From assembly GCF_000253055.1 (NCBI RefSeq), contig NC_016070.1:330001-362000 (forward strand): a stretch of 32,000 bases of DNA, written 5' to 3'. The stretch comes from Thermoproteus tenax Kra 1 (GTDB lineage: Archaea > Thermoproteota > Thermoprotei > Thermoproteales > Thermoproteaceae). The notes below the pieces were generated by a model that saw only the letters and a program-made list of their open reading frames with translations, was not told the DNA's origin and ran no database searches. Shown one piece after another: positions 2,982-31,516 of the stretch (the first letter of the stretch is position 1; each line of letters begins with the position of its first letter). The translations under genes and the position numbers were made by a program.

Positions 2982-3045
2982 ATTTGTTCAAAATTAGCTC
3001 GATTATCTATACATAAAATTTAAATATAATTTTAATTCTGCCACT

Positions 3046-3987: not shown

Positions 3988-4162
3988 GGCCTAACTCGAA
4001 CCCTTTTTCCCGGCGCGTAGATTGAAACAATGTTGAATATTTGTTGTTCAACAATATTTTCTTAGCCTATTTTCAAGAGAATAGAAATATATATTTATAA
4101 TATAATACATTAATTTAATTTCAAAAATTATCACTTTAGTAAAACTTAAAAATACCTTAAAA
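3988..4162. promoter_or_regulatory. Unusually long, extremely AT-rich intergenic region (promoter region of 4163 gene)
   Basis: My hand count over 4041-4180 gives roughly 17-20% G+C in a genome that otherwise looks about 60% G+C. It contains several TATA-like runs (TATATATTTATAATATAATA, ACTTAAAAATAC). Confidence 0.5.
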
Positions 4163-4972: not shown

Positions 4973-4979
4973 TCCTCTT

Positions 4980-15072: not shown

Positions 15073-15346
15073 AGACGCAGAGGGGCACGCCGTCGTTTGG
15101 ATGGGGCACGCGGCTGAACCGGCGCGGCCCGCTGGGGCTCAGGTCTGCGGCCTCTGGCGACGCCCAGGAGAGGCGCACATCAGTCCGCCGTCCCGGGTGG
15201 ACGCAAATGCAATGTAGCCGCCTCCACGGCAGAGGATAACGGCTACAACGCTGGACGAGGGCTGTCTCTACGTTCAATTATTATGACATGCGTTGCGCTG
15301 TTTTTAGCGACCCTACTAAGGAACGCAGGTGTAGCCGTATGTGCCG

Positions 15347-15852
15347 TTTACTATCTTTCGATTTCCATCCCTGAGGAGCAGAGGAGAGGATCAAGACGAG
15401 AATTAGAACGTTTCTACTATCTTTTGATTTCCACACGCGCTCTACGCCGTCCACGCGAGGCTATATAGCATCGCGATATTTCTACTATCTTTTGATTTCC
15501 ACTCAATGGCGATACAGCGTGGGGGCCTGTAGTGCCATGGCTCACATTTCTACTATCTTTTGATTTCCACCGAAGAGGTCTCTGGAGCGGCTGGGGAGCT
15601 AAAATATCCCCTCCCGTACTTTCTACTATCTTTTGATTTCCACCCCCGCTTTTTCTTCCGACCACGTAACTGTGGAAGTCAAACGTGATCTTTCTACTAT
15701 CTTTTGATTTCCACGCACCTACCTCTCTCTGTGTGTGGCCAGTCCATCGGAGATAACCTTTCTACTATCTTTTGATTTCCACAGCTAGGCTACATTTCTA
15801 AGACTGGCGGTGCTCACTTTGTGGAAGCTTTCTACTATCTTTTGATTTCCAC
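15347..15852 (-). CRISPR. CRISPR array, 7 perfect repeats plus 1 degenerate terminal repeat, 7 spacers
   Basis: TTTCTACTATCTTTTGATTTCCAC (+ strand) starts at 15411, 15479, 15547, 15620, 15691, 15759 and 15829. A degenerate copy, TTTACTATCTTTCGATTTCCAT, sits at 15347-15368. The spacers are 42-49 nt and all different. I infer the minus strand for three reasons. The repeat then reads GTGGAAATCAAAAGATAGTAGAAA(G), ending in a GAAAG-type handle. The decayed repeat sits at the low-coordinate (trailer) end. A TATA-like box lies just beyond the high-coordinate repeat. Confidence 0.95.
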
Positions 15853-15895
15853 CGCCCACGTTGACTGCGGCCTCGGGTATTTAAATTTTGCCCAG
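15853..15895 (-). promoter_or_regulatory. Probable CRISPR leader promoter
   Basis: TATTTAAATTTT at 15878-15889 lies about 25-30 nt from the first repeat (15852) when read on the minus strand. Confidence 0.45.
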
Positions 15896-16121
15896 ATCCT
15901 CCGCCCGCCCGGCGGCCGCTTTTCCGCTGCCCTTTACATTCACACATTCTCCTGTCCGGGCTACGGCGTGCGCCGTTCTTCGCCTTTACGATCGCGACAA
16001 TGCCTTAGAGACGGCGGCTACCCAGCGCCGTTCTTCGCATTTGGCCATCTAGCCCCTTGTCTGGAGTATATTACATCCTTTACCGACATATATTGGAATG
16101 TTTTAATGCTCGTGGGATATC

Positions 16122-18231: not shown

Positions 18232-18446
18232 ACTGTGGAGCAGGCGCCTAAAAAGGCGGATTCCTACGAGGCCGGGGGAAGCCCGATAGGGAGATGATGT
18301 ACCTCCACTAGGCCGACCTCTGACGAACCGCGCGCAAGCCGCCCCCGGAGGGCCCGCCGGTTCTGCTCTATCTATTCTCTAGCTTAAAAATCTTCCGCCT
18401 CTGGCGCGAGGGGTGAGTGCATTTAAACGTGGAAAATAGCGCATGT

Positions 18447-19826
18447 GTGTATGTGTTTGTTAGGAAGGTCATTATTAGAAACTTCAAGAGCATCGGGGAG
18501 CTGGAGCTTGAGCTGAGGCCTGGGGTGAACCTCCTGGTGGGCCCCAACGGGGCTGGGAAATCCAACGTCTTGGAGGCGATTAGGTTCGCCAGGAGGGCTC
18601 TGGTGGAGGCGGCCTCGCCGTATCTCCCATATGCGCCGGACTACCTCTCGCCGCTTGACGTGATCTACGGCCGGGACCCGAGGCGGGAGGTGGCGCTGGG
18701 TTTTGGCCTGGAGCTCTACGGCGAGGAGGGCGGGGAGTGGCTGTCGGCCTATGCGGAGTTCACCACCTACTTCAGGTACAGGCCGCAGCCCTACGAGACG
18801 ATTGAGCCCGTCCGCCACGTGGTAAAAATCGGCGACACCCAGGCGGAGATAGACAGAGGAGGCGTCACCATCACGGCCCCAAGGGAGCACTTCGACAGAG
18901 CGATGAAGTGGATCAAGGAACATGGGAAGCGTATACTACCTTTACCTTTCAAACTAGCCGAGCCTAAGGAGGAGGGCGACAGGACAGTCGTCTCGTATAG
19001 GTGGGACATGGAGGTGCCGCTACAGCTCGAGGGCCTTAGACACGTGCTGTGGCCGGGGCCGAGGGGGAGGGCGTCGGAGGACTTGTTGGCGTGTAGCCTA
19101 GTCGCCCGGAGGACTCTCACGCCGTTCCCGGTCGCGTTGGGGAGGGCCAAGAGGCCGAGGGGGGTCCCCGTGGATCTGTCGCCGTGGTTCTGTCTGGATG
19201 GAGTCTTAGATGCCGTGAGGGGGGTTCTCTGGAGGGTGGTCTTTCTCCGGCATGTGGAGAGGCGTGTGGAGCCTGTGCCTATCGCCGGCGGAGATGTGCT
19301 TGATGAGCGGGGGCGGAACGTGGCCGCGGTGCTGTTTAGCTACAGGGGGAGGTTTGGGAGGAATCCCGAGTCTGTCGACAGAGCTCTGGCCGCCCTCTTT
19401 CCGGGCGTCCTGCTGGAGGTTAGGCAGCTTTACAACAGCGCTCTTCTTGTCGCCAGGGAGGGGGATGTGGAGCTTCCCCCCTCCAACATCCCCGACGGCT
19501 TGCTTAAGCTGGTGGTGCTGATGCTGGCGGTGGATTTGGGCCCCTCGCTGCTCCTCGTGGACGAGGTGGAGAACAGCATGCACGCGAGGCTTCTGGAGTA
19601 CGTCGTGGACGTGTTTAACGGGCTTAACGTGCCGGTCCTCCTGGCCACGCACTCCCCCGTGGTTGTGGATCTGGTCGACCTTGAGAGGATCTACTTCCTG
19701 TCTAAAGGCCCTGGGGGGACCCGCGCGGAGGCGGTTCCTGACCCCGAGGAGCTGAGAAGGCGGCTGGGCGAGGCCGGGGTTGCGATTAGCGACTATTTCT
19801 TTTACACGAAGAGGTACGGCAGGTGA
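18447..19826 (+). CDS. ABC-type (AAA_15/AAA_21-like) ATPase with large insert
   Basis: The track ORF starts at GTG 18417, but that codon sits immediately upstream of, and abuts, the TATA-like GCATTTAAACG (18419-18429). In-frame GTG 18447 or 18453 fits a leaderless start (VFVRKVIIRNFKSIGEL...). Motifs are Walker A GPNGAGKSN, signature-like PDGLLKLVVLMLAV, Walker B LLLVDEVENSMH and H-loop LLATHSP. Confidence 0.8.
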   Translation: MYVFVRKVIIRNFKSIGELELELRPGVNLLVGPNGAGKSNVLEAIRFARRALVEAASPYLPYAPDYLSPLDVIYGRDPRREVALGFGLELYGEEGGEWLSAYAEFTTYFRYRPQPYETIEPVRHVVKIGDTQAEIDRGGVTITAPREHFDRAMKWIKEHGKRILPLPFKLAEPKEEGDRTVVSYRWDMEVPLQLEGLRHVLWPGPRGRASEDLLACSLVARRTLTPFPVALGRAKRPRGVPVDLSPWFCLDGVLDAVRGVLWRVVFLRHVERRVEPVPIAGGDVLDERGRNVAAVLFSYRGRFGRNPESVDRALAALFPGVLLEVRQLYNSALLVAREGDVELPPSNIPDGLLKLVVLMLAVDLGPSLLLVDEVENSMHARLLEYVVDVFNGLNVPVLLATHSPVVVDLVDLERIYFLSKGPGGTRAEAVPDPEELRRRLGEAGVAISDYFFYTKRYGR

Positions 19827-20356
19827 TGGCCGCGCGCTTTCTATTCGTGGAAGACCAACACGGAGTCGAATTCCACCAAAGGCTTATAGAAAAGCTACAG
19901 AACTCTGGCATAGTACCTCACAGCTTGGCTCCTAAGATCGAGAGGATACCGACCGGCCTCTGTAATTCCTCCCTGGGGAGAAAAATTGCTGCGAGGTTAT
20001 TCGGGTTAGAGCGGTGGCGTATACTATTTGTTATAGACTCCGAGGGGGAGGAGAAGAGGGCGGCGGCCGACGCGAGAGTTCTCAGGCATCTGAGAAGCCA
20101 CGAGTCGCTCAGGGATAGGTTGGATAATGTAAGAGTTGTGGTGGTTCACCCACGTCATGAGAAGTGGCTTTGCATGGGGTTGGGCGGCAGAAGCTGTAAT
20201 TCAGATCCAGAGAGTGAGCTTGATAGAATCCTTGGGAGGGTGTATAAGAAAGACGAATTAGCTAAGCAGGCTGGCCGTCTAAATGTGGAGGGGCTAATGT
20301 CGGATGGCGACTTCAGGGAGTACATCGAGGGGCTTAGGTGGCTTTTGTCCTCTTAG
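19823..20356 (+). CDS. Small Toprim-like protein (DUF4276/RloB-like), coupled to upstream ATPase
   Basis: The ORF is 176-177 aa. GTG 19823 or ATG 19826 overlaps the ATPase TGA (19824-19826). FLFVEDQHG (E10), ILFVIDSEGEE (D72/E74) and VVVHPRHEKWL (E113) follow the Glu / acidic cluster / E-x-W order of Toprim-derived partners of AAA_21 ATPases. This is from memory of the family consensus, not a search. Confidence 0.55.
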   Translation: MMAARFLFVEDQHGVEFHQRLIEKLQNSGIVPHSLAPKIERIPTGLCNSSLGRKIAARLFGLERWRILFVIDSEGEEKRAAADARVLRHLRSHESLRDRLDNVRVVVVHPRHEKWLCMGLGGRSCNSDPESELDRILGRVYKKDELAKQAGRLNVEGLMSDGDFREYIEGLRWLLSS

Positions 20357-20987: not shown

Positions 20988-21956
20988 CTACTCCTGGGGT
21001 GGGGCCGGGTAGACTACCTCCAGCCCTAGGTCTTTGGCCATTGCCTTCACCCGCTCGGGGTATCTGTCGTCTATATAGGGGGTGACCACGTAGACGGCGG
21101 CCACCTTGGCCCCCCTGGCCCTCTCGTAGAGCTCCCTCTTCTTCACTATGGTGGGCAGGTCGCTCCGCTTCAGCGAGGACATAATCTCGACGATTATCAG
21201 CCTCCCGTCTCTGACCACCACGTCGTAGTCCACCTCGGAGGGGGTGCCGTATACGTAGCCCTCTCTGTCGTAGAGGACCTCCTTGGACGCAGACCACCCG
21301 GCCTCCTTCAACATGGCCCTCATGCCCTCCCTAAAGGCCTCCTCGCTGATCACCCCCCATCTGGCCCCCAGCGCGTCCAGCTTCCTCTCCAGCTTGTTGA
21401 TGGCCCTCCACAGCTCCTCGACGTCCTTCTTAGTGGCCATCCTCTCCTCGAGAGCCCTCAGCTCCTCTCTCGTGGCCAGGGCCTTCAGATCTTCCTTCGT
21501 AGCCATCCTCTCCCCAAGCGCCCTGAGCTCCTCCTTGGTGGCGAGGCCCTTTAGATCCTCCTTTGTAGCCATAACTTTTCTCACCTCCTCCAACCGCTCT
21601 TCTAGCCTCTTGAAGTCCTCTCTCGTGACAAGAGCCTTCAGATCCTCCTTAGTGGCGAGGGCTTTGAGGTCGTCCTTAGTGGCGAACGCCTTAAGATCGT
21701 CCTTTGCGGCCATCCTGGCCTCCAGATCCTTTATCTCCTCCTTGGTGGCCATTTCTCTCCTCACCTCCTCCAGCCGCTCCTCCACCCTCTGTATCTCCTC
21801 CCTCAAAGATCTCACGTCCTCCTTTGTGGCCAAGCTCTGCCACGGCGTAAGCTTGGCGAGGGCTCGGTAGAGCACCTCGGGCCTCGCCTCCAGGGCCTCG
21901 GCGATTATCTCGGGGTGCTCGAGAAGAACCCTCCTCACCTCCTCTGCGACGCCCAC
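20988..21956 (-). CDS. Coiled-coil tandem-repeat protein (ATKEDLKAL repeats) with C-terminal PD-(D/E)xK-like domain (DUF3782-type)
   Basis: The ORF is 322 aa with 11 copies of the A-T-K-E-D-L-K-A-L-type nonapeptide between aa 42 and 182. The C-terminal EVDYDVVVRDGRLIIVEIMSSLK...VVTPYIDD...LGLEVVYP resembles the restriction-endonuclease-like fold of archaeal DUF3782-type proteins. GTG 21956 lies about 24 nt after TTATAAAAAA (comp. 21976-21985). Confidence 0.75.
   Translation of the reverse strand: MGVAEEVRRVLLEHPEIIAEALEARPEVLYRALAKLTPWQSLATKEDVRSLREEIQRVEERLEEVRREMATKEEIKDLEARMAAKDDLKAFATKDDLKALATKEDLKALVTREDFKRLEERLEEVRKVMATKEDLKGLATKEELRALGERMATKEDLKALATREELRALEERMATKKDVEELWRAINKLERKLDALGARWGVISEEAFREGMRAMLKEAGWSASKEVLYDREGYVYGTPSEVDYDVVVRDGRLIIVEIMSSLKRSDLPTIVKKRELYERARGAKVAAVYVVTPYIDDRYPERVKAMAKDLGLEVVYPAPPQE
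21411..21833 (-). repeat. In-frame 27-nt periodic coding repeat (11 nonapeptide units, interspersed with EERLEEVR linkers)
   Basis: Units start at aa 43, 70, 84, 92, 101, 110, 130, 139, 152, 161 and 174 of the 20988..21956 protein. The DNA copies differ at many synonymous positions. Confidence 0.6.
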
Positions 21957-22244
21957 ACTATATCCTCCAACGCCTTATAAAAAACTGTCGCTCTCTGCTA
22001 CGGCCGCCGGGCGGCCCAACCGAGGCTGTAGTCTGGACGTGAGGGGCGAATTTACGCGGAGGCCTTTGTAGTCCAACTCTAGGAGGGGCGCTTGGGAGGG
22101 CCGGACGGTGGAGGCCGCCGAAACCTCCTAAGCCAGCTGTAGCAGTCGTTGAAGCTCCCGTGCTCAAGGGAAGGGCGACAGAGCTTATACCGACTGAGGC
22201 GGCGCGCGCCTCCACAACTTATTAATCCGCCCGTCCCTCCTCCC

Positions 22245-23432
22245 GTGTCGTTCAAACGCGTTGGGCGCGAGGGGCTTCTGCTAGCGGCGGCTGGATCTGC
22301 GGCAGGGGTCGTGTGGGGCGCAAACCAAGTGGCCCTCTCCATATATATGGCCTCGATAGGCATGAGCCCCGCCCTCATAGGCGCAGTCCTCGGCGCCTCG
22401 GCTCTGTTCAGCGCCGCCGGCTCGCTCGCAGTGGGCTATCTGGCGGACTACATGGACCGGCTCAGACTCTTCGTCCTGCTGTCCCTAGCCGAGGGGGCCT
22501 CCCTCCTCCTCATGGCGATTAGATCCCCCGTAGTGGTCTCAGCGGCGTACCTCCTCTTTATGTTCATCAACAGATACCCTGTGTGGGCCGCCGTGATGGG
22601 CGAGTTCGCCAGACGGAGGGGCGCCTCGGATGAGCTCTTCAGCATCTCCTCCGCGCTCAACGTGGCGTTCAGCGTCTTGGGCGCCGCCATAGCCTCTCTG
22701 CCCAGCTACCTCGGCCAGCTCGGCTACGACGTCCTCTTCGCTGCAGAGGCCTCCGCCGTGCTCATCTCGGCGGCTTCCGCCTACTCGGCCATCAAGAGGC
22801 TGGGGCTCGCCTCAATAGGAGCCGAGAAGGTGGGGCTGAGGGATCTGCTCCGCCTGCGCTCCTCCTGGCTTCTGAAGAGGCTTTTGCCCGACGCCTTGAT
22901 AGGGCTCGGGGCAGGCCTCATAATCCCCCTCTTCAGCCTCTGGTTCTATCTTAAGTTCCACGTAAGTCTGGCCAGTCTGAGCGTAGTCTATGCCGCCTCA
23001 AACGCGACGCTCGCCCTCGGGATCCTTGCGGCGCCCGTAGTCTCCAGAGCGTTGGGGAGCAGAGTGCTCTCAGTGACCGTGCTCCAGGGGATCGCCACCG
23101 CCATCTTGGCCGTAATGCCCGAGGTCCCCAGCCTGCCCGCGGTCCTGGCGCTGTTCGTGGTCAGGAACACTCTGATGAACATGGCGAACCCGCTCCTTAC
23201 CTCGTTGATCAACGACCTAACGCCGAAGGAGGAGAGGGGGCGCGTCTTTGGGGCGTGGAACACGCTCTCCTCAGTGCCCCGCGCTGTGGGCCCCGCCGTT
23301 GGCGGATATCTGATGGGCGCCGGCTATCTGGATCTGCCGCTCTATATAACGGCCTCCCTCTACGCAACGGCGGTGGCGTCCTTCTACGTCCTCTTGAGGG
23401 GGGTGGAGGGGTCTCTACAGGCCGGCGGATAG
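22245..23432 (+). CDS. MFS transporter
   Basis: I trimmed track ORF 22149..23432 to the in-frame GTG 22245, about 22 nt after the TATA-like CTTATTAATC (22218-22227). The product is about 395 aa with about 12 TM helices. The loop motif GYLADYMDRLR lies between TM2 and TM3. Confidence 0.75.
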   Translation: MSFKRVGREGLLLAAAGSAAGVVWGANQVALSIYMASIGMSPALIGAVLGASALFSAAGSLAVGYLADYMDRLRLFVLLSLAEGASLLLMAIRSPVVVSAAYLLFMFINRYPVWAAVMGEFARRRGASDELFSISSALNVAFSVLGAAIASLPSYLGQLGYDVLFAAEASAVLISAASAYSAIKRLGLASIGAEKVGLRDLLRLRSSWLLKRLLPDALIGLGAGLIIPLFSLWFYLKFHVSLASLSVVYAASNATLALGILAAPVVSRALGSRVLSVTVLQGIATAILAVMPEVPSLPAVLALFVVRNTLMNMANPLLTSLINDLTPKEERGRVFGAWNTLSSVPRAVGPAVGGYLMGAGYLDLPLYITASLYATAVASFYVLLRGVEGSLQAGG

Positions 23433-23574
23433 CCCGCGGTGGAGCCCTGGCTATAGGCCGAGCTGGATTGAGACGACCCCGCCCTGTGGGGCAGGGCCTT
23501 CGGTTGTAAAAAAGAACTAATAGGTAGAAGCCGGCTAAAAGACGGGGCTAGAGCGCTGCGAAACGCCCCGGTGG

Positions 23575-24039
23575 TCAGCCGGAGCCCCTCTGATCGGCGA
23601 TCTTCTCCGGCCTCACCACGATGGAGTTGAATGCCGTATAGCCCTCTCTGTACTTCAGAACTCCTACGGCGCTGTTGACGAGCCTTCCCCTCGTCATGAC
23701 GACCTCCTCGGCGTGTGTGTTGATCAAGATCACCTCCTCGCCCTCAACGCGCCCTACGACGCAATTGGTAAGCTTCACCCTTCTGCCGGCGACTCTCTGG
23801 ACGGTGGCGTTTTCGAGCGCCACGTCGTTGCCCTCGACTTTCTCCAAGACTACGTTGCTCAACGAGGGGGCCCCGCCGCCTATCCCCCACGGACGCCCTC
23901 TGAACCTCCAGGGGATCCCCCTCACTTCTACAGACGCCCCCCTTCCCCCCAGCGAGAGTTTCACAAGGCCCAAGTTTATCGTGCGCGCCCTCCCCCGCCT
24001 GCTGTAGTACTCGTAGTATCTGTCGAATTTATCGGCCAT
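23575..24039 (-). CDS. Beta-solenoid repeat protein (bactofilin/DUF4097-like), unknown function
   Basis: The ORF is 154 aa. It has four in-register 15-residue units (VEGNDVALENATVQR / VAGRRVKLTNCVVGR / VEGEEVILINTHAEE / VVMTRGRLVNSAVGV). The ATG overlaps the upstream TAA (TAATG). Confidence 0.6.
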   Translation of the reverse strand: MADKFDRYYEYYSRRGRARTINLGLVKLSLGGRGASVEVRGIPWRFRGRPWGIGGGAPSLSNVVLEKVEGNDVALENATVQRVAGRRVKLTNCVVGRVEGEEVILINTHAEEVVMTRGRLVNSAVGVLKYREGYTAFNSIVVRPEKIADQRGSG

Positions 24040-24158
24040 TATTTGACCTTGAGCATCTCCCTTATCTCGGCGAGGAGCTGCTTCATCTCCCTCAGCCTCT
24101 CCTTGATCATGCGCATCACCTCCTCGTCGTCGGCTTCGGCGTATTTCAGCTCGCTCAT
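24039..24158 (-). CDS. 39-aa helical micro-protein (not in ORF track)
   Basis: Hand translation gives MSELKYAEADDEEVMRMIKERLREMKQLLAEIREMLKVK*. Its ATG (comp. 24156-24158) overlaps the upstream TGA (24155-24157) as ATGA. Its TAA (24039-24041) overlaps the downstream ATG (24037-24039). Confidence 0.5.
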   Translation of the reverse strand: MSELKYAEADDEEVMRMIKERLREMKQLLAEIREMLKVK

Positions 24159-24475
24159 GCCTCGCTCACCTTCTTCAGCTCGTCCCTTATCTCCCTCAAC
24201 ACTGCGTTGACCTCGTCTAGCTCTTCGAGGAGGCTCCTCGCCAACGCCCTATATACGTCGATGCGGACCCTCCGCTCCTTGGCCTGGGCGTCCATGTAGT
24301 CCAAGATGGGCACAAAGGCCACCAACGCCATTATGGCCCCCCAGAATATGGCCAAGGCGCCGAGAACGCCTGCGACTATAAGGAATATCCAAGAGCCGGT
24401 CCTGAAGGCTATGTAGAAGAGGGACACCGGCACCACTGCGCCGATCATAAGCGCCGAGGCCAACATAACGATCAT
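24155..24475 (-). CDS. Small membrane protein with C-terminal coiled-coil helix
   Basis: I trimmed track ORF 24155..24811 to ATG comp. 24473-24475 (MIVMLASALMIGAVVPVSLFYIAF...), which overlaps the ArsR-like stop as ATGA. The product is 106 aa with 3 hydrophobic helices followed by AKERRVRIDVYRALARSLLEELDEVNAVLREIRDELKKVSEA. The upstream 112 codons are G/P/A-rich read-through in the ArsR gene's alternative frame. Confidence 0.6.
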   Translation of the reverse strand: MIVMLASALMIGAVVPVSLFYIAFRTGSWIFLIVAGVLGALAIFWGAIMALVAFVPILDYMDAQAKERRVRIDVYRALARSLLEELDEVNAVLREIRDELKKVSEA

Positions 24476-24795
24476 TGGCCCGACGACGAGCCTGACTCCT
24501 CCGACCTCGCCAGATCCTCCAGCAGCTGTCTGTCTATCACTAGCCTGAAGTCTCTGACCCTGTATATCTTTCTGAGGTGGGGCCTCGGCCTCTCCTCCAC
24601 CACGTAGGAGCCCTCCACTAGGCCTGCCTCCTCCAACACCTTCAAATGCATGTGGGCCAGCGCGTAGGGGATGCGGAGCGACTGAGCTATGTCCTGTATA
24701 AAGGTGGGCCTCCTCACTAACAGTAGGAGGATCTTCACGCGGACGGGGTGCGAGAGGGCCCTCGCTACCCGCACCAAGTCCTCCGGCGAGACCAC
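24472..24795 (-). CDS. ArsR/SmtB-family winged-helix transcriptional regulator
   Basis: I trimmed track ORF 24472..25488 to GTG comp. 24793-24795, 8 nt after the permease stop. The 107-aa product reads (M)VSPEDLVRVARALSHPVRVKILLLLVRRPTFIQDIAQSLRIPYALAHMHLKVLEEAGLVEG, a canonical ArsR HTH. Confidence 0.7.
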   Translation of the reverse strand: MVSPEDLVRVARALSHPVRVKILLLLVRRPTFIQDIAQSLRIPYALAHMHLKVLEEAGLVEGSYVVEERPRPHLRKIYRVRDFRLVIDRQLLEDLARSEESGSSSGQ

Positions 24796-24803
24796 TTTTA
24801 AAC

Positions 24804-25544
24804 TCAGCCATGTCTCTCCTCCCTCCTGATGGCGTATATTAGAATCAGTATCGACGCAATGGAGTACGCCAAGAGCCCGCCGGCGCCTCTGGCTATCTCG
24901 GCCGCGTTCAAGGCGAGGGAGCCGCGCAGGGCGTCTGCCATATAGGTGGTGGGGAGGACGGCGCTGATGAGCCTCAACGGCTGCGGCATCAGATACGCCG
25001 GATAGTAGACGGGGGCTGCGATCAGGAGCAACCAAGGTATTACTTGGGCCATCTGTTGTGATAACGCAACATTTCTTATACTTATCGCGTGGGCATAGCC
25101 CAAGAGTGTGGAGGCGGCGGAGACGAGGGGCGATGCCCCCGCAGCGGCCAAGATCTGCGGAGGCCCGTAGGACGCGCCGGTGAGGGCTGCGGACAGTACT
25201 AACAACAGCGCCGAGGCGCCCGTAGCCATGGCGACGGACTGCGCCACGTAGCTGAGGGCTATCTCCAAGTGGCCGGCTCCGTTGGCCAACAACAGGGAGT
25301 ACTGCCTGGACCAGTACTTCATCTGTGCGACGTCTTGGGCCGTGACAGTGTACGACATCGTAAAGCTGGTTGAGATGACGGTCCCCACTATGAAGTATAC
25401 AACGTACGCCGAGTTGCCCACTAGCCTCAAGATCCACAGCCACAGAAGGGGGAAGGGCACCATGAACCAGGCCAACGCAAGAGACCACCCCCTTGAGGCG
25501 AGCACCATGTATTTGGCGATGACGAGGGCTCTGCCCAGCCTCAT
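24804..25544 (-). CDS. ABC-2 type transporter permease
   Basis: The ORF is 246 aa with 6 TM helices and follows the ABC ATPase gene. Its ATG overlaps the ATPase stop (ATGA at 25541-25544). Confidence 0.7.
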   Translation of the reverse strand: MRLGRALVIAKYMVLASRGWSLALAWFMVPFPLLWLWILRLVGNSAYVVYFIVGTVISTSFTMSYTVTAQDVAQMKYWSRQYSLLLANGAGHLEIALSYVAQSVAMATGASALLLVLSAALTGASYGPPQILAAAGASPLVSAASTLLGYAHAISIRNVALSQQMAQVIPWLLLIAAPVYYPAYLMPQPLRLISAVLPTTYMADALRGSLALNAAEIARGAGGLLAYSIASILILIYAIRREERHG

Positions 25545-26365
25545 GGCAATACGGCGGATAGGACGTCCTCCAACGTCGGCTCCCTCACCTCGAACCTGGT
25601 CCTCGATTTGGCCAACTCAGCCACAATCTCCACGGCCTTGTCCCACTCAACCCTCACGACGCGGTCATCGGTTCTGATCTCGACCCAGGGCAGAAGCCTT
25701 TTGAGCTCAGCCGGCGTCCCCCGCATCAGAATACGTCTGTTTAACACGTAGACCACATCGCTGAGCTCCTCGGCCTCATGGATGTAGTGAGTAGTCAACA
25801 ATACCGTCGAGCCCTCCTCTTTGGCGGCTCTGATGGCCTCCCAGATCCTCCTCCTATTTTGCACGTCTACGCCGATCGTCGGCTCGTCCAACAGTATCAG
25901 CTTGGGCCTGCAGGCCATCGCCGACGCCACTAACACCAGCCTCCTCATGCCTCCCGAGAGGTTCGCGACCGTATCCTCCTCCCGTCCCCCGAGGCCCACT
26001 GCGTCGATGGCCTCCCTCGCGCACTCCTTGGCTCTGCCCTTGGGGATCCCCCGCAGCCTCACGGCCATCTCCACGTGCTCCCTCACCTTGAGCCAGAGGA
26101 AGGGCGATGCCTCCTGTGGGACAGCCCCCACCAGCCCCCTCTCCTTCGCCTTCCCGGGGCTGAGGCCGGCGACCTTGATGACGCCCCTATCGGGGCGGAG
26201 CTCGCCGTATATCTGTCTCAAGAGGGTGGTCTTCCCTGCGCCGTTTGGGCCCAGCAGCGACGTCGTCTCGCCCTCGCCCACCCAAAGGCTGACGTCCTCG
26301 TTTGCCACCACTCTGCCGAAGGACTTCCACACTCCATCAACTATCAAAAATTCTTGTTTCACCAT
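25541..26365 (-). CDS. ABC transporter ATP-binding protein (ABC-2/CcmA-like subfamily)
   Basis: Motifs are Walker A GPNGAGKTT, signature LSGGMRRLV, Walker B LILLDEPTIGVD and H-loop TTHY. ATG 26365 (or TTG 26368) lies about 27 nt after AAAATTTAAATATTTT (comp. 26385-26399). Confidence 0.85.
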   Translation of the reverse strand: MVKQEFLIVDGVWKSFGRVVANEDVSLWVGEGETTSLLGPNGAGKTTLLRQIYGELRPDRGVIKVAGLSPGKAKERGLVGAVPQEASPFLWLKVREHVEMAVRLRGIPKGRAKECAREAIDAVGLGGREEDTVANLSGGMRRLVLVASAMACRPKLILLDEPTIGVDVQNRRRIWEAIRAAKEEGSTVLLTTHYIHEAEELSDVVYVLNRRILMRGTPAELKRLLPWVEIRTDDRVVRVEWDKAVEIVAELAKSRTRFEVREPTLEDVLSAVLP

Positions 26366-26450
26366 CAATTTTAACTGATAGTGAAAATATTTAAATTTTC
26401 TGCTACCTCAGCCGGCGGGCAGACGCAGATAGGGGGAAGGGCCTCTACTC

Positions 26451-26865: not shown

Positions 26866-27651
26866 ATGGACGTAGAGTCGGTCAAAAGGCTGGGCGCAAG
26901 GCTGAGGGAGGCCCTCGGACTGACGACGTTCCCAGTCGGCGTGAAGTTCTGCCGTAGGGGGGAGACGTGCGATCTGTCCGGCTTCAAGAGGCCCTACAAA
27001 GACCTAGGGCTCAGAATGGCCCTCTGCCAAGTGGTCAATATAGCGAGGACGTACGGCTGGTCGCTGGCCGTGGGCCTGGAGGACTCCTTCTGTATGATAG
27101 GGGCCCAGGCCGCGGGCCTCGTGGACAGACATTTGGACTACATAGACGCCGAGGTCCCCAAATGGCACACGTCCAGCCGAGAGGCCGCTGACGCCATAGT
27201 TAGGGCGCTGGGCGCCCGATCGCTCGAGCCGGGCTCCGTAGACCTAGTGTTGGTGGCCCCCCTCGAGCGCTCCACCTTCGTCCCCGATGTAGTCGTCCTG
27301 TACGGCGCACCGGCCCAGATAAGCACTGCCGCTAAGGCGCTAGTCTGGCACGGCGTAATGCCGGAGATGTCGTTTTTGGGCATGGCGTCGTGCACATTGA
27401 TACCGCACGCGCACAAGACCGGCAGAGCGCAGATAAATCTGCCGGGCACAGGCGAGCTTATCTTGGGCAGGACCGAGAGCCACGAGGTGGGCCTAGTCGT
27501 GCCCGCCGACAAGGCAGAGTTGATCTTGACGGGCATGGAGGCCGTGAGGAGGATACACCCATACCCGTTGGCTAAGTTCTCGTTGTACGAGCCCAGAGTG
27601 CCCAGCTGGTACCAAGCTCTGACCTACGACTACTACAGACAGAGGACGTGA
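26866..27651 (+). CDS. DUF169 (COG2043, ArCR) family protein
   Basis: The ORF is 261 aa. The N-terminal LREALGLTTFPVGVKF and cysteine-containing core are typical of DUF169. ATG lies 24 nt after the TATA-like CTTTATTAAG (26838-26847). Confidence 0.65.
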   Translation: MDVESVKRLGARLREALGLTTFPVGVKFCRRGETCDLSGFKRPYKDLGLRMALCQVVNIARTYGWSLAVGLEDSFCMIGAQAAGLVDRHLDYIDAEVPKWHTSSREAADAIVRALGARSLEPGSVDLVLVAPLERSTFVPDVVVLYGAPAQISTAAKALVWHGVMPEMSFLGMASCTLIPHAHKTGRAQINLPGTGELILGRTESHEVGLVVPADKAELILTGMEAVRRIHPYPLAKFSLYEPRVPSWYQALTYDYYRQRT

Positions 27652-29659: not shown

Positions 29660-30196
29660 ATGCTGAGGCTTCCTCCGGGCAGAAAACCCCCCGAGGAGAT
29701 CTACGTCTTCGTGGAAATACCCGCCAACTCCAACGTCAAGTACGAATACGACGACGAGCTCGGCGTTATAGCCGTAGACAGAGTCTTGTACACTGCGCTG
29801 GTCTATCCATTCAACTACGGCTTCATACCGAGCACGCTCTCGGAGGACGGCGATCCGCTCGACGTGGCCCTTCTGAGCGGCGCGGAGTTCGCCCCGGGCG
29901 TTCTAGTTAGGGCGAGGCCCATAGGGCTTTTGGAGATGGAGGACGAAGAGGGGACGGACTACAAGGTGATAGCGGTGCCCATAGAGAAAGTCGACCCCTC
30001 CTACGCGGACGTGAAGGACATAATGGATCTGACAAAGCCCACTCTGGAGAAGATAAGGCACTTCTTCGAGAGATACAAAGAGTTGGAGCCCGGCAAATGG
30101 GTGAAGGCAAAGGGCTACCTAGGGGCGGAGGAGGCCAAGAAGTACATAATGGAGGCAGTAGAAAGGTTCAAGAGGTCTCAGGGCTCTACCCCGTGA
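29660..30196 (+). CDS. ppa: Inorganic pyrophosphatase, family I
   Basis: The ORF is 178 aa. Blocks are VFVEIPANSNVKYEYD, YPFNYGFIPSTLSEDGDPLDV and DYKVIAVP. Confidence 0.9.
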   Translation: MLRLPPGRKPPEEIYVFVEIPANSNVKYEYDDELGVIAVDRVLYTALVYPFNYGFIPSTLSEDGDPLDVALLSGAEFAPGVLVRARPIGLLEMEDEEGTDYKVIAVPIEKVDPSYADVKDIMDLTKPTLEKIRHFFERYKELEPGKWVKAKGYLGAEEAKKYIMEAVERFKRSQGSTP

Positions 30197-30818
30197 TCCG
30201 GCCCCTCTCTATCCTTTTGATAGCTTGGGCGAATCTTACGTAGCTGGGGTTCGACTCGGCGATCAACGCCGCTGCGCCGGTAGTCGATATAAACTCTTTG
30301 ACGACTCCGGCGAGGTCGTCCCTCATCTTGGGCGAGAGGCCCTCGAACACCTCGTCCAACAACACGGCGCTGGTCCCCACGACCATCGCGCGCGCCAGCG
30401 CGACCATCTTCTGTTGGCCGCCCGACAACAGCCCGGCCCTCTTCTCCAAGAGCTCCCTCAACACCGGCATCAAGCTCAGGACCAGCTCCAGGCGGTCCTC
30501 CCTCAGCTTGAGCGCCCTCAAGGGCAGGAGGATGTTCTCTCTCACCGTCAAATTGGGGAAAAGCCTCCTGTCCTCGGGCGAGAGGCCGAGCCCGAGCGCC
30601 GCCCTCTCGTGCGGCTTGAGCCCGTCTATGGGCCTCCCGTCCAGCTCCACGCGGCCTTTATATTTTACCAAGCCCATGATGCTCCGCAGCGTCGTAGTTT
30701 TGCCGGCGCCGTTGGGGCCGACGAGGGCTACGGCGGTTCCCCTCGGCACCTCGATGCTGACTCCTCTCAGTATCTCAGAGCCTCCCAGAACTACTCTGAG
30801 GTCGTGCGCCTTGATCAT
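30186..30818 (-). CDS. livF: Branched-chain amino acid ABC transporter ATP-binding protein (LivF-type)
   Basis: The ORF is 210 aa. Motifs are GPNGAGKTTTL, LSPEDRRLFPNLTVRENL, LSGGQQKMVALARA and LLDEVFEGLSP. The 3' end overlaps the convergent ppa by 11 nt. Confidence 0.8.
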   Translation of the reverse strand: MIKAHDLRVVLGGSEILRGVSIEVPRGTAVALVGPNGAGKTTTLRSIMGLVKYKGRVELDGRPIDGLKPHERAALGLGLSPEDRRLFPNLTVRENILLPLRALKLREDRLELVLSLMPVLRELLEKRAGLLSGGQQKMVALARAMVVGTSAVLLDEVFEGLSPKMRDDLAGVVKEFISTTGAAALIAESNPSYVRFAQAIKRIERGRITG

Positions 30819-31516
30819 ACCTCCACTCTGTCTGCGTCCTCCGGCTTGGCTACGGCGACGACCCTACCTTGAGCCATAACCAAGACTCTCGACGCGTATT
30901 TTTTCACTATATCTAAGTCGTGCTCCACGAAGACCGCCGAGGCGCCGAGGCTCTTCAACGAGCTGGCCAGAGAGTCCATAATGCGGTATTTGTCGTCGGC
31001 GGCCACGGAGCTCGTCGGCTCGTCCAAAAGCATCAGCTTGGGGCGGCTGACCGCCGCAAGCGCTACGTCCAGAAGCTTCTTCTCGCCCTCCGACAGCTTC
31101 TCGAGGGAATACATCCTCTTCTCCCATAGGCCGAACAGCTCCAGCGTCTCCCTCACCTCCCGCTCCTCCACCCGCCTCAGAGAGATCCCCTTGGCCGCGG
31201 CCACTGCTATTGCGACGTTCTCGTAGACGGTCAAGCCCCAGAACGCCGATGGAAGTTGGAAGGAGCGGGCTATGCCGAGCCTCACCCTCCTCTGTGGAGG
31301 AAGGTTGGTTATCTCTCTGCCGAGGAAGAGGATCTTCCCCGAGTCCAGCCTAATGAACCCGGTCAGAGCGTTTATCAACGTGGTCTTGCCGGAGCCGTTG
31401 GGACCGACTATGGCCAAATACTCCCCCCTACGCACCTCTAAGTCTACGCCGTCCAACGCCCTCACTCCGCCGAACGACTTCCTCAGCCCAACCGCCTTGA
31501 GAATAACCTCCTCCAT
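30815..31516 (-). CDS. livG: Branched-chain amino acid ABC transporter ATP-binding protein (LivG-type)
   Basis: The ORF is 233 aa. Motifs are LRKSFGGVRALDGV, GPNGSGKTTL, IARSFQ, LSEGEKKLL and MLLDEPTS. It overlaps livF by 4 nt. Confidence 0.8.
   Translation of the reverse strand: MEEVILKAVGLRKSFGGVRALDGVDLEVRRGEYLAIVGPNGSGKTTLINALTGFIRLDSGKILFLGREITNLPPQRRVRLGIARSFQLPSAFWGLTVYENVAIAVAAAKGISLRRVEEREVRETLELFGLWEKRMYSLEKLSEGEKKLLDVALAAVSRPKLMLLDEPTSSVAADDKYRIMDSLASSLKSLGASAVFVEHDLDIVKKYASRVLVMAQGRVVAVAKPEDADRVEV

What the first reader, a model, noticed from the sequence alone, without database searches (positions are those of the whole stretch)
23575..26365. Six-gene overlap-coupled operon: ABC-2 exporter + ArsR regulator + membrane coiled-coil protein + 39-aa ORF + beta-solenoid protein
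Seen: all six genes are on the minus strand and share a single good TATA box (comp. 26385-26399). The order is ABC ATPase, ABC-2 permease, ArsR wHTH, 106-aa TM/coiled-coil protein, 39-aa helical ORF and 154-aa beta-solenoid protein. The junctions are ATGA (25541-25544), an 8-nt gap (24796-24803), ATGA (24472-24475), ATGA (24155-24158) and TAATG (24037-24041). Established: such overlaps indicate translational coupling and fixed stoichiometry. In bacteria, a wHTH regulator plus a small membrane protein plus a beta-helix protein (PadR-DUF1700-DUF4097; LiaF-type) is often linked to envelope-stress sensing and ABC detoxification modules. Inference: this could be an archaeal analogue, i.e. an envelope-stress or toxin-export sensing module. 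I know of no characterised archaeal system with this composition.
Basis: partly seen in the sequence, partly recalled or inferred. Interest (0 to 1): 0.65.

Follow-up and report, generated by a model that had tools for sequence, protein, structure and literature searches.

The report
Conserved archaeal exporter operon with orphan trio
This is a real six-gene operon found in all five genera of the hot-spring archaeal family Thermoproteaceae: a membrane export pump, its probable repressor, and three tightly coupled small proteins of unknown families that probably link the pump's expression to the state of the membrane, although no function has been tested.

Summary
In this Thermoproteus tenax window, six minus-strand genes are packed with the stated overlaps: ABC ATPase, ABC-2 permease, ArsR-type wHTH, a 106-aa membrane/coiled-coil protein, a 39-aa ORF and a 154-aa beta-solenoid protein. 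Opposite-strand genes bound them on both sides.

The same six genes occur in the same order in Pyrobaculum, Vulcanisaeta, Caldivirga, Thermocladium and about 20 metagenomic contigs.

New findings:
- A conserved TATA box is followed by an inverted repeat (ATCAG-N6-CTGAT) that abuts the first start codon. It occurs once per locus and only there, so it is a likely operator for the Cys-free, sensor-less ArsR.
- The 39-aa ORF is under strong purifying selection (dN/dS about 0.09), is 39 codons long in every aligned ortholog, and is absent from NCBI's T. tenax proteins.
- The permease and the beta-solenoid protein have no detectable relatives outside the Thermoproteaceae; the membrane protein's were sought less sensitively.
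- The beta-solenoid has 15-residue coils with an Asn ladder. It matches no Pfam family and no PDB fold significantly, so it is not DUF4097/Toastrack and not demonstrably bactofilin.

The PadR-DUF1700-DUF4097 analogy therefore holds only at the level of architecture. The best reading is an autorepressed efflux or immunity module with a sub-membrane sensor or anti-repressor trio. The function is untested.

The parts
26384..26399 (-). BRE/TATA-like promoter element (AAAATTTAAATATTTT) of the operon
   Evidence: It is the only long A/T run upstream of the first gene. An equivalent AAAATTTAAAAAT block is aligned in all orthologous loci. Its centre lies about 26 nt upstream of the ATG, which implies a leaderless or nearly leaderless mRNA (inference from archaeal promoter geometry).
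26364..26383 (-). Conserved element CACTATCAGTTAAAATTGAT, which contains the inverted repeat ATCA-N8-TGAT (ATCAG-N6-CTGAT in most orthologs). It lies between the TATA box and the start codon and is a candidate operator of the operon's ArsR repressor.
   Evidence: The pattern CA[CG]TAT[CA]A-N7-9-TGAT occurs 22 times in 315 kb of loci on both strands, always and only at this promoter position. L029 and L032 carry the perfect palindrome ATCAAAAATTTTTGAT. The rest of the upstream region is not conserved. Binding by ArsR is inferred, not shown.
25541..26365 (-). ABC transporter ATPase, 274 aa, closest to the DrrA subfamily
   Evidence: PF00005 at 1.3e-28. TIGR01188 drrA at 6.6e-56, which is below the subfamily cut-off.
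24804..25544 (-). ABC-2 type permease, 246 aa. Its start overlaps the ATPase stop (ATGA).
   Evidence: PF01061 at 29.1 bits against a cut-off of 26.9. A profile search finds only 32 clusters, all with E below 1e-67; all named ones are Thermoproteaceae.
24796..24803 (-). 8-nt spacer GTTTAAAA between the permease stop and the ArsR GTG start
   Evidence: TGA-KTTTAAAA-GTG is conserved in 8 of 10 loci. Its role is unresolved: it could be an internal TATA box or a reinitiation spacer.
24472..24795 (-). ArsR/HTH_5 winged-helix regulator, 107 aa, GTG start, with no Cys and no alpha5 metal site
   Evidence: PF01022 at 2.2e-10. Best PDB match is 2p4w, the Pyrococcus Phr heat-shock regulator, at 4.3e-10 over the wHTH only. 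NCBIfam Phr, metalloregulator and SdpR models all score below their cut-offs. The sequence contains no cysteine.
24155..24475 (-). 106-aa membrane protein: a hydrophobic N-terminal half (two predicted TM helices) and a cytoplasmic heptad-repeat helix ending in the invariant motif LLEELDxVN..L..IRD.L
   Evidence: Kyte-Doolittle profile. Alignment of 13 orthologs. No Pfam, PDB or PADLOC match above noise.
24039..24158 (-). 39-aa helical microprotein. Its start overlaps the upstream stop (ATGA) and its stop overlaps the next start (TAATG).
   Evidence: It is 39 codons long in every aligned ortholog. Median dN/dS is 0.085. A profile-profile comparison matches the C-terminal helix of the 106-aa protein at 43% identity, P=1.7e-4, probability 49.5%. 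The exact T. tenax sequence is not held under any NCBI accession.
23575..24039 (-). 154-aa cytoplasmic protein with a conserved N-terminal motif MAxKFDxYYEYF, a low-confidence linker, and a C-terminal beta-solenoid of about six 15-residue coils with an Asn ladder (N77, N92, N107, N122, N138)
   Evidence: AlphaFold pLDDT exceeds 90 for about residues 80-140, and all five models agree. Repeat register. A full HMMER search of 1.84 billion representatives finds only about 8 true relatives. No Pfam or PDB sequence match. No Foldseek hit with E below 1e-3.
23507..23513 (-). Oligo-T run (TTTTTTA) about 62 nt downstream of the last stop codon; candidate archaeal terminator
   Evidence: Sequence. The next gene (MFS transporter, 22149-23432) is convergent on the plus strand. 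The terminator function is inferred.

Best explanation
This is a single, autoregulated operon specific to the Thermoproteaceae. It encodes an inducible ABC-2 efflux or immunity pump together with its own control device.

1. Transcription. It starts from one BRE/TATA promoter as a leaderless or near-leaderless mRNA. An inverted repeat (ATCAG-N6-CTGAT) sits between the TATA box and the first ATG, where archaeal repressors block RNA polymerase recruitment. The obvious binder is the dimeric ArsR/Phr-like winged-helix protein encoded by gene 3, which would make the operon autorepressed.

2. Signal input. This ArsR has no cysteine and no recognisable metal site, so the inducing signal probably does not reach it as a metal ligand.

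3. The trio. Three translationally coupled partners follow it: a two-TM membrane anchor with a cytoplasmic heptad helix, a 39-aa helix that resembles that anchor helix, and a cytoplasmic beta-solenoid protein with a conserved aromatic N-terminal peptide. I propose that they assemble into a sub-membrane complex. This complex would report the state of the membrane or of the transporter and would capture or release the repressor, raising pump expression when needed.

Shown: the gene content, conservation, coupling, promoter element, fold class and family isolation.
Inferred: ArsR binding to the repeat, complex formation, repressor sequestration, and the nature of the substrate or signal.
For: Unit and coupling:
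- The same six genes occur in the same order in T. tenax, P. neutrophilum, a Pyrobaculum MAG, V. moutnovskia, V. distributa, Vulcanisaeta JCM 16159, C. maquilingensis, two other Caldivirga, T. modestius and about 17 metagenome loci. Their flanks are unrelated.
- The overlap junctions are conserved.
- dN/dS is 0.09-0.22 for all six genes.
- Opposite-strand genes lie on both sides, and a T-run follows the last gene.

Autoregulation:
- The TATA box plus inverted repeat occurs once per locus, only at this promoter: 22 of 22 pattern matches in 315 kb are at this site.
- The ArsR recognition helix IPYALAH(M/L)HLK is nearly invariant and the TGAT half-site is invariant.

Sensor-less repressor:
- It has no Cys, and the metalloregulator model scores below its cut-off.
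- Its closest solved relative is Phr. From my own knowledge, Phr is a stress-released repressor that binds over the transcription start site.

Precedents for the mechanism:
- The ArsR-type autorepressor SdpR is sequestered by the membrane protein SdpI (PMC2910880).
- PadR-DUF1700-DUF4097 operons are autorepressed (PMC6624303).

Dependence of the parts on each other:
- The two loci that lost the ABC genes also carry a frameshifted or fused membrane-protein gene, or have lost the 39-aa and 154-aa genes.
Against: - There is no experimental datum of any kind: no transcript map, no binding assay and no interaction data.
- No multimer structure prediction could be run.
- The three small proteins show no homology to any known signalling component, so their role is argued only from position and architecture.
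- An ArsR protein can sense non-metal ligands directly, which would make the trio unnecessary for regulation.
- The conserved promoter element could be bound by a different factor, or could simply be a strong initiator region.
- The conserved TTTAAAA before ArsR leaves room for a second transcription unit.
- The similarity between the 39-aa protein and the anchor helix (probability 49.5%) may be coiled-coil composition only.
Confidence: 0.4

Rival explanations
1. The three small proteins are structural or accessory subunits of the ABC-2 exporter itself, for example a cytoplasmic platform that recruits or gates the substrate. ArsR senses a small-molecule ligand directly. On this reading the trio has no part in regulation.
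For: - Strict co-occurrence and translational coupling fit fixed-stoichiometry subunits just as well as a sensor.
- The permease and the beta-solenoid protein are similarly isolated, lineage-specific families, as expected if they co-evolved as one machine; the membrane protein's relatives are likewise all Thermoproteaceae where named.
- When the ABC genes are lost, the trio decays.
Against: - The gene order places ArsR between the transporter genes and the trio, with the trio coupled to ArsR by an ATGA or a gap of at most 7 nt.
- ArsR has no recognisable ligand or metal site.
- I know of no ABC-2 exporter that needs a beta-solenoid subunit (my own knowledge).
Confidence: 0.28
2. The 154-aa protein is a bactofilin-like, self-polymerising cytoskeletal element. 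The 106-aa and 39-aa proteins tether it to the membrane, and it contributes to envelope or cell-shape organisation in these rod-shaped archaea. Its linkage to the transporter is secondary.
For: - Bactofilin structures (2n3d, 6rib) are among the top Foldseek matches, with a target-normalised TM-score of 0.24-0.44.
- Like bactofilins, it is a small beta-helix with a conserved N-terminal peptide and disordered flanks (PMC12448750 and 10.1101/617639 describe bactofilin membrane-targeting peptides).
- All five host genera belong to one family of rod-shaped archaea (cell shape from my own knowledge).
Against: - The Foldseek E-values are 0.14-0.66, not significant, and CARP, pentapeptide-repeat and ice-binding solenoids score equally well.
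- There is no PF04519/DUF583 hit even at E up to 10.
- The coil length is 15 residues, against about 17-18 in bactofilins (bactofilin value from my own knowledge).
- The genome scan recovered the cluster in no other Pyrobaculum or Thermoproteus species genome, which is unexpected for a core shape determinant.
- Strict linkage to an ArsR and an exporter is not explained.
Confidence: 0.1
3. The module is a dedicated self-immunity or defence cassette, for example against an archaeocin or a membrane-active toxin or virus product, and it moves between genomes as an accessory island. The trio would be the immunity or sensor part specific to that toxin.
For: - Its distribution within Pyrobaculum and Thermoproteus appears patchy.
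- The flanks are variable and rich in HEPN/MNT pairs, OLD/AAA_21-type ATPases and a TnpB-like gene.
- The permease is split by an insertion element in one Caldivirga lineage, and some copies are decaying, as expected of a dispensable accessory module.
- ABC-2 pumps paired with an autorepressor are typical immunity modules (SdpRI precedent, PMC2910880).
Against: - There are no PADLOC hits for the permease or the trio; the ATPase and ArsR hits are generic P-loop and wHTH matches.
- No relatives were found in 2.9 million viral contigs.
- No toxin or bacteriocin gene is conserved next to the cluster.
- HEPN/MNT pairs are abundant in these genomes anyway (my own knowledge).
Confidence: 0.12
4. There are two transcription units rather than one. 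Genes 1-2 (the transporter) would be driven by the upstream promoter. Genes 3-6 (ArsR plus the trio) would be driven, at least in part, by an internal promoter at the conserved TTTAAAA.
For: TGA-KTTTAAAA-GTG is conserved in 8 of 10 loci, although it is intergenic. It is one of the few A/T runs inside the operon.
Against: - The heptamer lies 1-7 nt from the ArsR start codon, too close to serve as a TATA box for that start.
- The ArsR N-terminus (SPEDL) is conserved with synonymous changes, so translation does begin at the adjacent GTG.
- P. neutrophilum and the L004 lineage lack the heptamer and use ATG instead.
- The conserved operator-like element occurs only at the upstream promoter.
Confidence: 0.1

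Closest known systems
[quoted passage not shown] 2024, PMC11237479)
   Same: The parts list is the same at the level of architecture: ABC ATPase, permease, small HTH regulator and an intracellular beta-helical protein held at the membrane. The proposed role is also the same: a sub-membrane platform that links membrane-proximal sensing, transport and transcription.
   Different: - There is no sequence or fold homology. The 154-aa protein gets no DUF4097, DUF2154 or DUF2807 hit, and Foldseek puts the Toastrack structure 4opw at E=5.8, probability 0.02.
- Here the beta-helix is a separate soluble protein, and the anchor is a separate two-TM protein plus a 39-aa microprotein.
- The regulator is ArsR-type.
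- The host is a crenarchaeal family in which Toastrack is not reported.
PadR-DUF1700 (HAAS)-DUF4097 operons, e.g. Listeria monocytogenes lltR-lmo0600-lmo0601 (PMC6624303; HAAS-PadR dyad in PMC11237479)
   Same: The gene order is wHTH repressor, then membrane protein, then beta-helix protein, and the operon is autorepressed.
   Different: - The regulator is HTH_5/ArsR, not PadR.
- The 106-aa protein has no DUF1700/HAAS match.
- The beta-helix is not DUF4097.
- An extra, strictly conserved 39-aa protein is present.
- The module is fused to an ABC-2 exporter.
SdpR-SdpI of Bacillus subtilis (an ArsR-family autorepressor sequestered at the membrane by an immunity/signal-transduction protein; PMC2910880)
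   Same: An ArsR-family autorepressor is encoded directly upstream of, and tightly coupled to, a small membrane protein. This gives a mechanistic precedent for de-repression by membrane sequestration rather than by a ligand.
   Different: - The SdpR model scores 28.7 bits against a cut-off of 100.
- The 106-aa protein has two TM helices plus a coiled coil and gives no SdpI match.
- The archaeal module also has two further proteins and an ABC-2 pump.
Phr, the heat-shock regulator of Pyrococcus furiosus (PDB 2p4w)
   Same: It is the closest solved relative of the regulator's winged-helix domain (E=4.3e-10; NCBIfam Phr model E=4.6e-12). From my own knowledge, Phr represses by binding a palindrome over the transcription start site, which matches the position of the element found here.
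   Different: Phr is 202 aa and has a long C-terminal helical dimerisation domain. The protein here is 100-107 aa and lacks that domain. It scores 45.9 bits against an equivalog cut-off of 320. The genomic context is different.
Bactofilins (DUF583/PF04519; PDB 2n3d, 6rib) and archaeal halofilins (PMC11459167)
   Same: Small cytoplasmic beta-solenoid with disordered termini and a conserved N-terminal peptide. They are among the best, though non-significant, structural matches.
   Different: - No Pfam hit.
- Foldseek E=0.14-0.66.
- The coils have 15 residues and an Asn ladder.
- There is no evidence of polymerisation.
- The operon context is an exporter plus a repressor.
DrrAB-type ABC-2 exporters
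   Same: The ATPase is closest to the DrrA subfamily (TIGR01188, 6.6e-56). The permease is a six-TM ABC-2 membrane protein. The two genes overlap by ATGA, as in many DrrAB-like pairs.
   Different: Both proteins score below the DrrA and DrrB subfamily cut-offs. The permease family is isolated, with only 32 clusters, all Thermoproteaceae where a source organism is named. The substrate is unknown.

Membership tests
ABC-2 type exporter (ABC_tran ATPase + ABC2_membrane permease) | ATPase with Walker A, signature and Walker B motifs that matches PF00005 above the gathering score | tested here: met
   PF00005 scores 100.8 bits against a cut-off of 25. GPNGAGKTT, LSGGM and LLDEPT are visible in the sequence.
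ABC-2 type exporter (ABC_tran ATPase + ABC2_membrane permease) | Adjacent permease that matches PF01061 above the gathering score | tested here: met
   PF01061 scores 29.1 bits against a cut-off of 26.9, only just above threshold. Orthologs carry the same precomputed Pfam call.
ArsR/SmtB family | HTH_5 winged-helix domain | tested here: met
   PF01022 scores 40.7 bits against a cut-off of 22. PDB relatives are ArsR-family proteins.
ArsR/SmtB family | Metal- or metalloid-sensing site (alpha3/alpha3N cysteines or an alpha5 His/Asp/Glu cluster) | tested here: not met
   The T. tenax sequence and the four orthologs read in full contain no cysteine, and no alpha5 H/D/E cluster is visible. The NCBIfam metalloregulator model scores 40.9 bits against a cut-off of 55.
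PadR-DUF1700(HAAS)-DUF4097(Toastrack) module | PadR-type wHTH regulator | tested here: not met
   No PadR hit was found. The best families are HTH_5 and HTH_20.
PadR-DUF1700(HAAS)-DUF4097(Toastrack) module | Membrane protein with a DUF1700/HAAS three-helix domain | tested here: not met
   None of the 13 orthologs of the 106-aa protein hits DUF1700. There are only sub-threshold TM/coiled-coil hits (DUF948 at 1.3e-3, Rv2743c at 0.05).
PadR-DUF1700(HAAS)-DUF4097(Toastrack) module | Toastrack beta-helix (DUF4097, DUF2154 or DUF2807; fold of PDB 4qrk and 4opw) | tested here: not met
   No Pfam hit at E up to 10 in 6 family members. Foldseek gives 4opw_A at E=5.8, probability 0.02, query-normalised TM-score 0.16.
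LiaF / LiaI-LiaF-TM | Four-TM LiaI-LiaF-TM domain fused to Toastrack, with a partner two-component system | tested here: not met
   There are two TM helices, no matching Pfam family, and no histidine kinase or response regulator in any locus.
Bactofilin (DUF583/PF04519) | Sequence match to the bactofilin domain | tested here: not met
   No PF04519 hit at E up to 10. A profile search of PDB sequences found nothing at E up to 10.
Bactofilin (DUF583/PF04519) | Bactofilin-type right-handed triangular beta-helix fold | tested here: inconclusive
   In the two searches, 2n3d scores E=0.14 and 0.43, and 6rib scores E=0.16 and 0.66, with a target-normalised TM-score of 0.24-0.44. Other solenoid classes score similarly.
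Bactofilin (DUF583/PF04519) | Nucleotide-independent polymerisation into filaments | not testable with these tools
   This needs purified protein and EM.
SdpR/SdpI signalling pair | SdpR-subfamily autorepressor and an SdpI-family membrane protein | tested here: not met
   The SdpR model scores 28.7 bits against a cut-off of 100. The membrane protein has no SdpI family hit. The comparison is mechanistic only.
Phr heat-shock regulator | Full-length equivalog, including the C-terminal helical domain | tested here: not met
   It scores 45.9 bits against a cut-off of 320. The match covers only residues 5-82 of the query profile, corresponding to residues 3-78 of the 202-aa Phr.
Known anti-phage defence systems (PADLOC) | Specific match of the non-generic components | tested here: not met
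   The permease and the three small proteins give no hits. The ATPase and ArsR hit only generic P-loop and wHTH models.

The most novel reading that the evidence does not exclude
The two-TM coiled-coil anchor, the invariant-length 39-aa microprotein and the 15-residue-coil beta-solenoid protein may form a previously undescribed archaeal sub-membrane signal-transduction device. It would be non-homologous to Toastrack/HAAS-PadR, SdpI/SdpR and two-component systems but functionally convergent with them. It would control transcription by capturing and releasing a sensor-less ArsR/Phr-like repressor in response to membrane or transporter state. That would be a one-component-like pathway split over four polypeptides, one of them a microprotein that current annotation misses.
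Probability: 0.25. Interest if true: 0.65.

Novelty: new variant of a known kind. Interest (0 to 1): 0.45.

Why it matters
Very little is known about how Crenarchaeota (Thermoproteota) sense membrane or envelope stress. They largely lack two-component systems and the bacterial Lia/Psp partner domains.

This operon gives a compact, family-wide candidate with clear experimental handles:
- a defined promoter and palindromic operator;
- a sensor-less repressor;
- three orphan proteins whose genes are translationally coupled.

It also adds a well-supported conserved microprotein: 39 aa, dN/dS about 0.09, and unannotated in the T. tenax reference. It adds a beta-solenoid family with an unusually short 15-residue coil and no detectable relatives outside one archaeal family.

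If the sequestration model holds, it would be an independent evolutionary solution to the task performed in bacteria by Toastrack/HAAS-PadR or SdpI/SdpR. If it does not, the cluster is still a clean example of a lineage-specific, autoregulated ABC-2 exporter with novel accessory subunits.

Tried and rejected
- Homology of the three small proteins to known families. Pfam, NCBIfam, PADLOC and PDB sequence searches, both with single sequences and with family profiles, gave nothing above noise. The weak PspM/PspC (E=0.05-0.5), DUF948 (1.3e-3), COMP and HepT hits were rejected as TM or coiled-coil composition effects.
- Remote relatives of the 154-aa protein. A full HMMER search of 1.84 billion representatives gave 10 hits. 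Two of them (1094 aa and 506 aa) are unrelated low-complexity repeat proteins and were discarded.
- Structural homology. Two AlphaFold models, built from alignments of 3 and 10 sequences, were each searched against the PDB with Foldseek. There was no hit with E below 1e-3. Both Toastrack and bactofilin membership were therefore not accepted.
- Viral or mobile origin. A scan of viral contigs found no relatives. No Rfam RNA families occur in the window, and no tRNAs.
- The ArsR/membrane-protein fusion in L013 as 'Rosetta stone' evidence for interaction. I rejected it as firm evidence because the locus is decayed: the permease is broken and the 39-aa and 154-aa genes are missing.
- L020/L021 as a natural 'trio without transporter' variant. 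I rejected this because the locus is about 99% identical to L019 downstream of a breakpoint inside ArsR and carries a 5-bp deletion in the membrane-protein gene. It is a recent pseudogenised copy.
- Literature search for T. tenax transcript maps or for the Vulcanisaeta locus tags. Nothing usable was found.
- The sigma-70 promoter and terminator scanner was not used, because it does not apply to archaeal promoters.
- The exact-sequence contig look-up for the T. tenax 154-aa protein failed. Orthologs were used instead.

Full report
**Source and observation**

The window comes from Thermoproteus tenax. The 154-aa protein is 100% identical to an NCBI T. tenax hypothetical protein (CCC81052.1/WP_014126309.1).

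| Gene | Coordinates (minus strand) | Size |
|---|---|---|
| ABC ATPase | 26365..25541 | 274 aa |
| ABC-2 permease | 25544..24804 | 246 aa |
| ArsR-type wHTH (GTG start) | 24795..24472 | 107 aa |
| Membrane/coiled-coil protein | 24475..24155 | 106 aa |
| Short ORF | 24158..24039 | 39 aa |
| Beta-solenoid protein | 24039..23575 | 154 aa |

- The junctions are ATGA, an 8-nt spacer, ATGA, ATGA and TAATG.
- Pfam confirms ABC_tran (100.8 bits), ABC2_membrane (29.1 bits against a cut-off of 26.9) and HTH_5 (40.7 bits). It finds nothing for the last three proteins.
- The cluster is bounded by opposite-strand genes. A DUF169 gene lies at 26866-27651 (+) and an MFS transporter at 22149-23432 (+).
- A T-run at 23513-23507 follows the last stop codon.

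**Is it a conserved unit?**

- Orthologs of the 154-aa and 106-aa proteins led to Pyrobaculum neutrophilum, Vulcanisaeta moutnovskia and metagenome contigs. All carry the same six genes in the same order, with different neighbours.
- A scan of one genome per GTDB species with the ArsR alignment added two Caldivirga, Vulcanisaeta distributa, Vulcanisaeta sp. JCM 16159, two Thermocladium and a Thermoproteaceae MAG.
- A metagenome scan with the 154-aa alignment added 17 loci.
- HMMs built from the six proteins hit all six in order in every locus long enough to show them.
- Caldivirga maquilingensis IC-167 and a Pyrobaculum MAG have the cluster too.
- The cluster is thus present in all five named genera of the family Thermoproteaceae.

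There are two kinds of exception, and both are decaying copies:
- L013 has a broken permease, no 39-aa or 154-aa gene, and ArsR fused in frame to the membrane protein.
- L020/L021 is about 99% identical to the intact L019 downstream of a breakpoint inside ArsR. The ABC genes have been replaced and the membrane-protein gene carries a 5-bp deletion.

In one Caldivirga lineage the permease is split by an insertion of about 1.1 kb.

**Isolation of the families**

- A full HMMER search of 1.84 billion representatives with the 154-aa profile gave about 8 genuine relatives, all 78-171 aa. Two further hits were unrelated repeat proteins.
- The permease profile retrieved only 32 clusters at 90% identity. 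All had E below 1e-67, none were intermediate, and all named ones were Thermoproteaceae. The caveat is that only the 8000 candidates sharing the most words were scored.
- The ArsR peptide patterns occur in no other species genome.
- No relatives were found in viral contigs.

**Coupling and coding**

- The overlaps are conserved across genera. The junction between the membrane protein and the 39-aa ORF is ATGA in 9 of 10 loci. The junction between the 39-aa ORF and the 154-aa gene is TAATG or TGATG in 9 of 10. ArsR and the membrane protein either overlap or are separated by at most 7 nt.
- Median pairwise dN/dS is 0.17 (ATPase), 0.19 (permease), 0.12 (ArsR), 0.17 (membrane protein), 0.085 (39-aa ORF) and 0.215 (154-aa protein).
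- The 39-aa ORF is therefore a real gene. It is 39 codons long in every aligned ortholog.
- Its exact T. tenax sequence is not held under any NCBI accession, and it was not called in the Pyrobaculum MAG.

**Promoter and candidate operator (new)**

- Upstream regions of the ATPase gene align only over about 45 nt. This stretch holds an AAAATTTAAAAAT-type TATA block, 4-5 nt of spacer, and then CA(C/G)TAT(C/A)A-N7-9-TGAT, which ends at or 1-3 nt before the start codon.
- The core is an inverted repeat: ATCAGTTTTAACTGAT in Caldivirga, ATCAGTTAAAATTGAT in T. tenax (26379-26364), and the perfect palindrome ATCAAAAATTTTTGAT in L029 and L032.
- The pattern occurs 22 times in 315 kb of collected loci on both strands. 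Every occurrence is at this promoter.
- The distance from the TATA box to the ATG implies a leaderless or near-leaderless mRNA. This is inferred from archaeal promoter geometry.
- A dyad placed between the TATA box and the start site is where archaeal repressors act. The nearly invariant ArsR recognition helix (IPYALAH(M/L)HLK) is the natural candidate binder. This too is inference.

**The regulator**

- It is a minimal ArsR-type wHTH without cysteine and without an alpha5 metal site.
- The NCBIfam metalloregulator, SdpR and Phr models all score below their cut-offs.
- Its closest solved relative is the Pyrococcus heat-shock regulator Phr (2p4w, E=4.3e-10). The match covers the wHTH only, because the protein lacks Phr's C-terminal domain.

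**The trio**

- *106-aa protein.* It has about 58 hydrophobic residues, consistent with two TM helices. After these come a basic juxtamembrane segment and a heptad-repeat helix ending in the invariant LLEELDxVN..L..IRD.L.
- *39-aa protein.* It is a single heptad helix. In a profile-profile comparison, residues 15-37 align with residues 79-101 of the anchor at 43% identity (P=1.7e-4, probability 49.5%). This is suggestive, but it could reflect coiled-coil composition alone.
- *154-aa protein.* It has no signal peptide or TM segment. It has a conserved aromatic N-terminal peptide (MAxKFDxYYEYF), a low-confidence region (residues 1-62, pLDDT below 50) and a C-terminal all-beta domain. For that domain pLDDT exceeds 90 and all five models agree in the second run.
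- *Repeat structure of the 154-aa protein.* The sequence repeats every 15 residues, with an Asn ladder at N77, N92, N107, N122 and N138. The Vulcanisaeta and Caldivirga orthologs have one or two more coils.
- *Fold comparison.* Foldseek against the PDB gave no hit with E below 1e-3 in either run. The top hits are generic beta-solenoids: bactofilin 2n3d and 6rib at E=0.14-0.66, CARP domains, SV2 pentapeptide-repeat domains and ice-binding proteins. The Toastrack structure 4opw comes in at E=5.8.

**Interpretation**

The architecture parallels three described bacterial arrangements:
- the autorepressed Listeria lltR-DUF1700-DUF4097 operon (PMC6624303);
- SdpR/SdpI, where an ArsR-type autorepressor is sequestered by a membrane protein (PMC2910880).

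None of the defining domains of those systems is present here, so this is analogy and not membership.

My best-supported model (confidence about 0.4) is as follows. The operon is autorepressed and encodes an inducible ABC-2 efflux or immunity pump. The anchor, the microprotein and the solenoid form a sub-membrane complex that relays membrane or transporter state to the sensor-less repressor.

The main rival (0.28) is that the trio are accessory subunits of the pump and ArsR senses a ligand directly. Lesser rivals are a bactofilin-like scaffold, a mobile immunity or defence cassette, and a split into two transcription units at the conserved TTTAAAA before ArsR.

**Verdict**

- The operon claim is strongly supported.
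- The 'archaeal analogue of PadR-DUF1700-DUF4097' reading holds only architecturally.
- The cluster is best classed as a new variant of a known kind of system, a regulated ABC-2 exporter with wHTH and sub-membrane beta-helix accessories, built from three orphan protein families restricted to one archaeal family.
- Interest is moderate (0.45). The cluster is robust, clean and experimentally tractable, but its function is untested and the general logic is not unprecedented.

Noticed in passing
window 24796-24802 (minus strand); same position in L003, L006-L010 and L012: The intergenic heptamer TTTAAAA between the permease stop (TGA) and the ArsR GTG start is conserved in 8 of 10 loci. The two lineages that use an ATG start (P. 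neutrophilum and L004) lack it. It could be an internal TATA box or an unstructured spacer that helps reinitiation at a weak GTG start.
   Followed up: partly
L013 5001-5690 (Thermocladium sp. UBA166): ArsR and the membrane/coiled-coil protein are fused into one ORF. The locus has a broken permease and lacks the 39-aa and 154-aa genes. It may be a decay product, or a hint that the two proteins work together.
   Followed up: partly
L020 5076-6516 and L021, compared with L019: This is a recently decayed copy of the cluster. The sequence is about 99% identical to L019 from about codon 20 of ArsR onward. The ABC genes and the ArsR N-terminus are replaced by unrelated DNA carrying a 377-aa gene on the opposite strand. 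The membrane-protein gene has a 5-bp deletion.
   Followed up: yes
L010 3642-4709; also L018 3901-4994 and L024 303-1370: An insertion of about 1.1 kb splits the permease gene at the same codon in three Caldivirga-lineage loci, while sister contigs are intact. It carries a 401-aa ORF on the opposite strand with no Pfam match. There is one 17-nt imperfect inverted repeat. It is probably an uncharacterised insertion element.
   Followed up: partly
window 24039-24158 (minus strand); L032 4728-4847: The exact T. tenax 39-aa protein sequence is held only by a Logan assembly and by no NCBI record, so the gene appears unannotated in GenBank and RefSeq. It was also not called in the Pyrobaculum MAG. 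In addition, the original GenBank call for the membrane protein (CCC81053.1, 218 aa) is the long ORF that overlaps ArsR in another frame.
   Followed up: yes
window 18417-19826 (+), 19823-20356 (+), 20988-21956 (-); L001 7037-8155: A 469-aa AAA_21/OLD-type ATPase is overlap-coupled to a 177-aa ORF with no family match. Its best PADLOC hits are HEC-01A, AriA and PtuA-like, at 1e-22 to 1e-24. A PDDEXK_10/DUF3782 nuclease-like gene lies next to it. This is a candidate defence pair. A similar AAA_21 ATPase lies just downstream of the cluster in P. neutrophilum. HEPN/nucleotidyltransferase pairs flank the cluster in L004 and C. maquilingensis.
   Followed up: partly
window 30186-31516 (minus strand): Two adjacent, overlapping ABC ATPase genes (210 aa and 233 aa) belong to a different ABC transporter that is unrelated to the cluster studied.
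   Followed up: no
window 3001-5000 and 15001-16000: G+C content drops to 0.48-0.54 against a background of about 0.62. These stretches were not examined. No Rfam family and no tRNA were found anywhere in the window.
   Followed up: no
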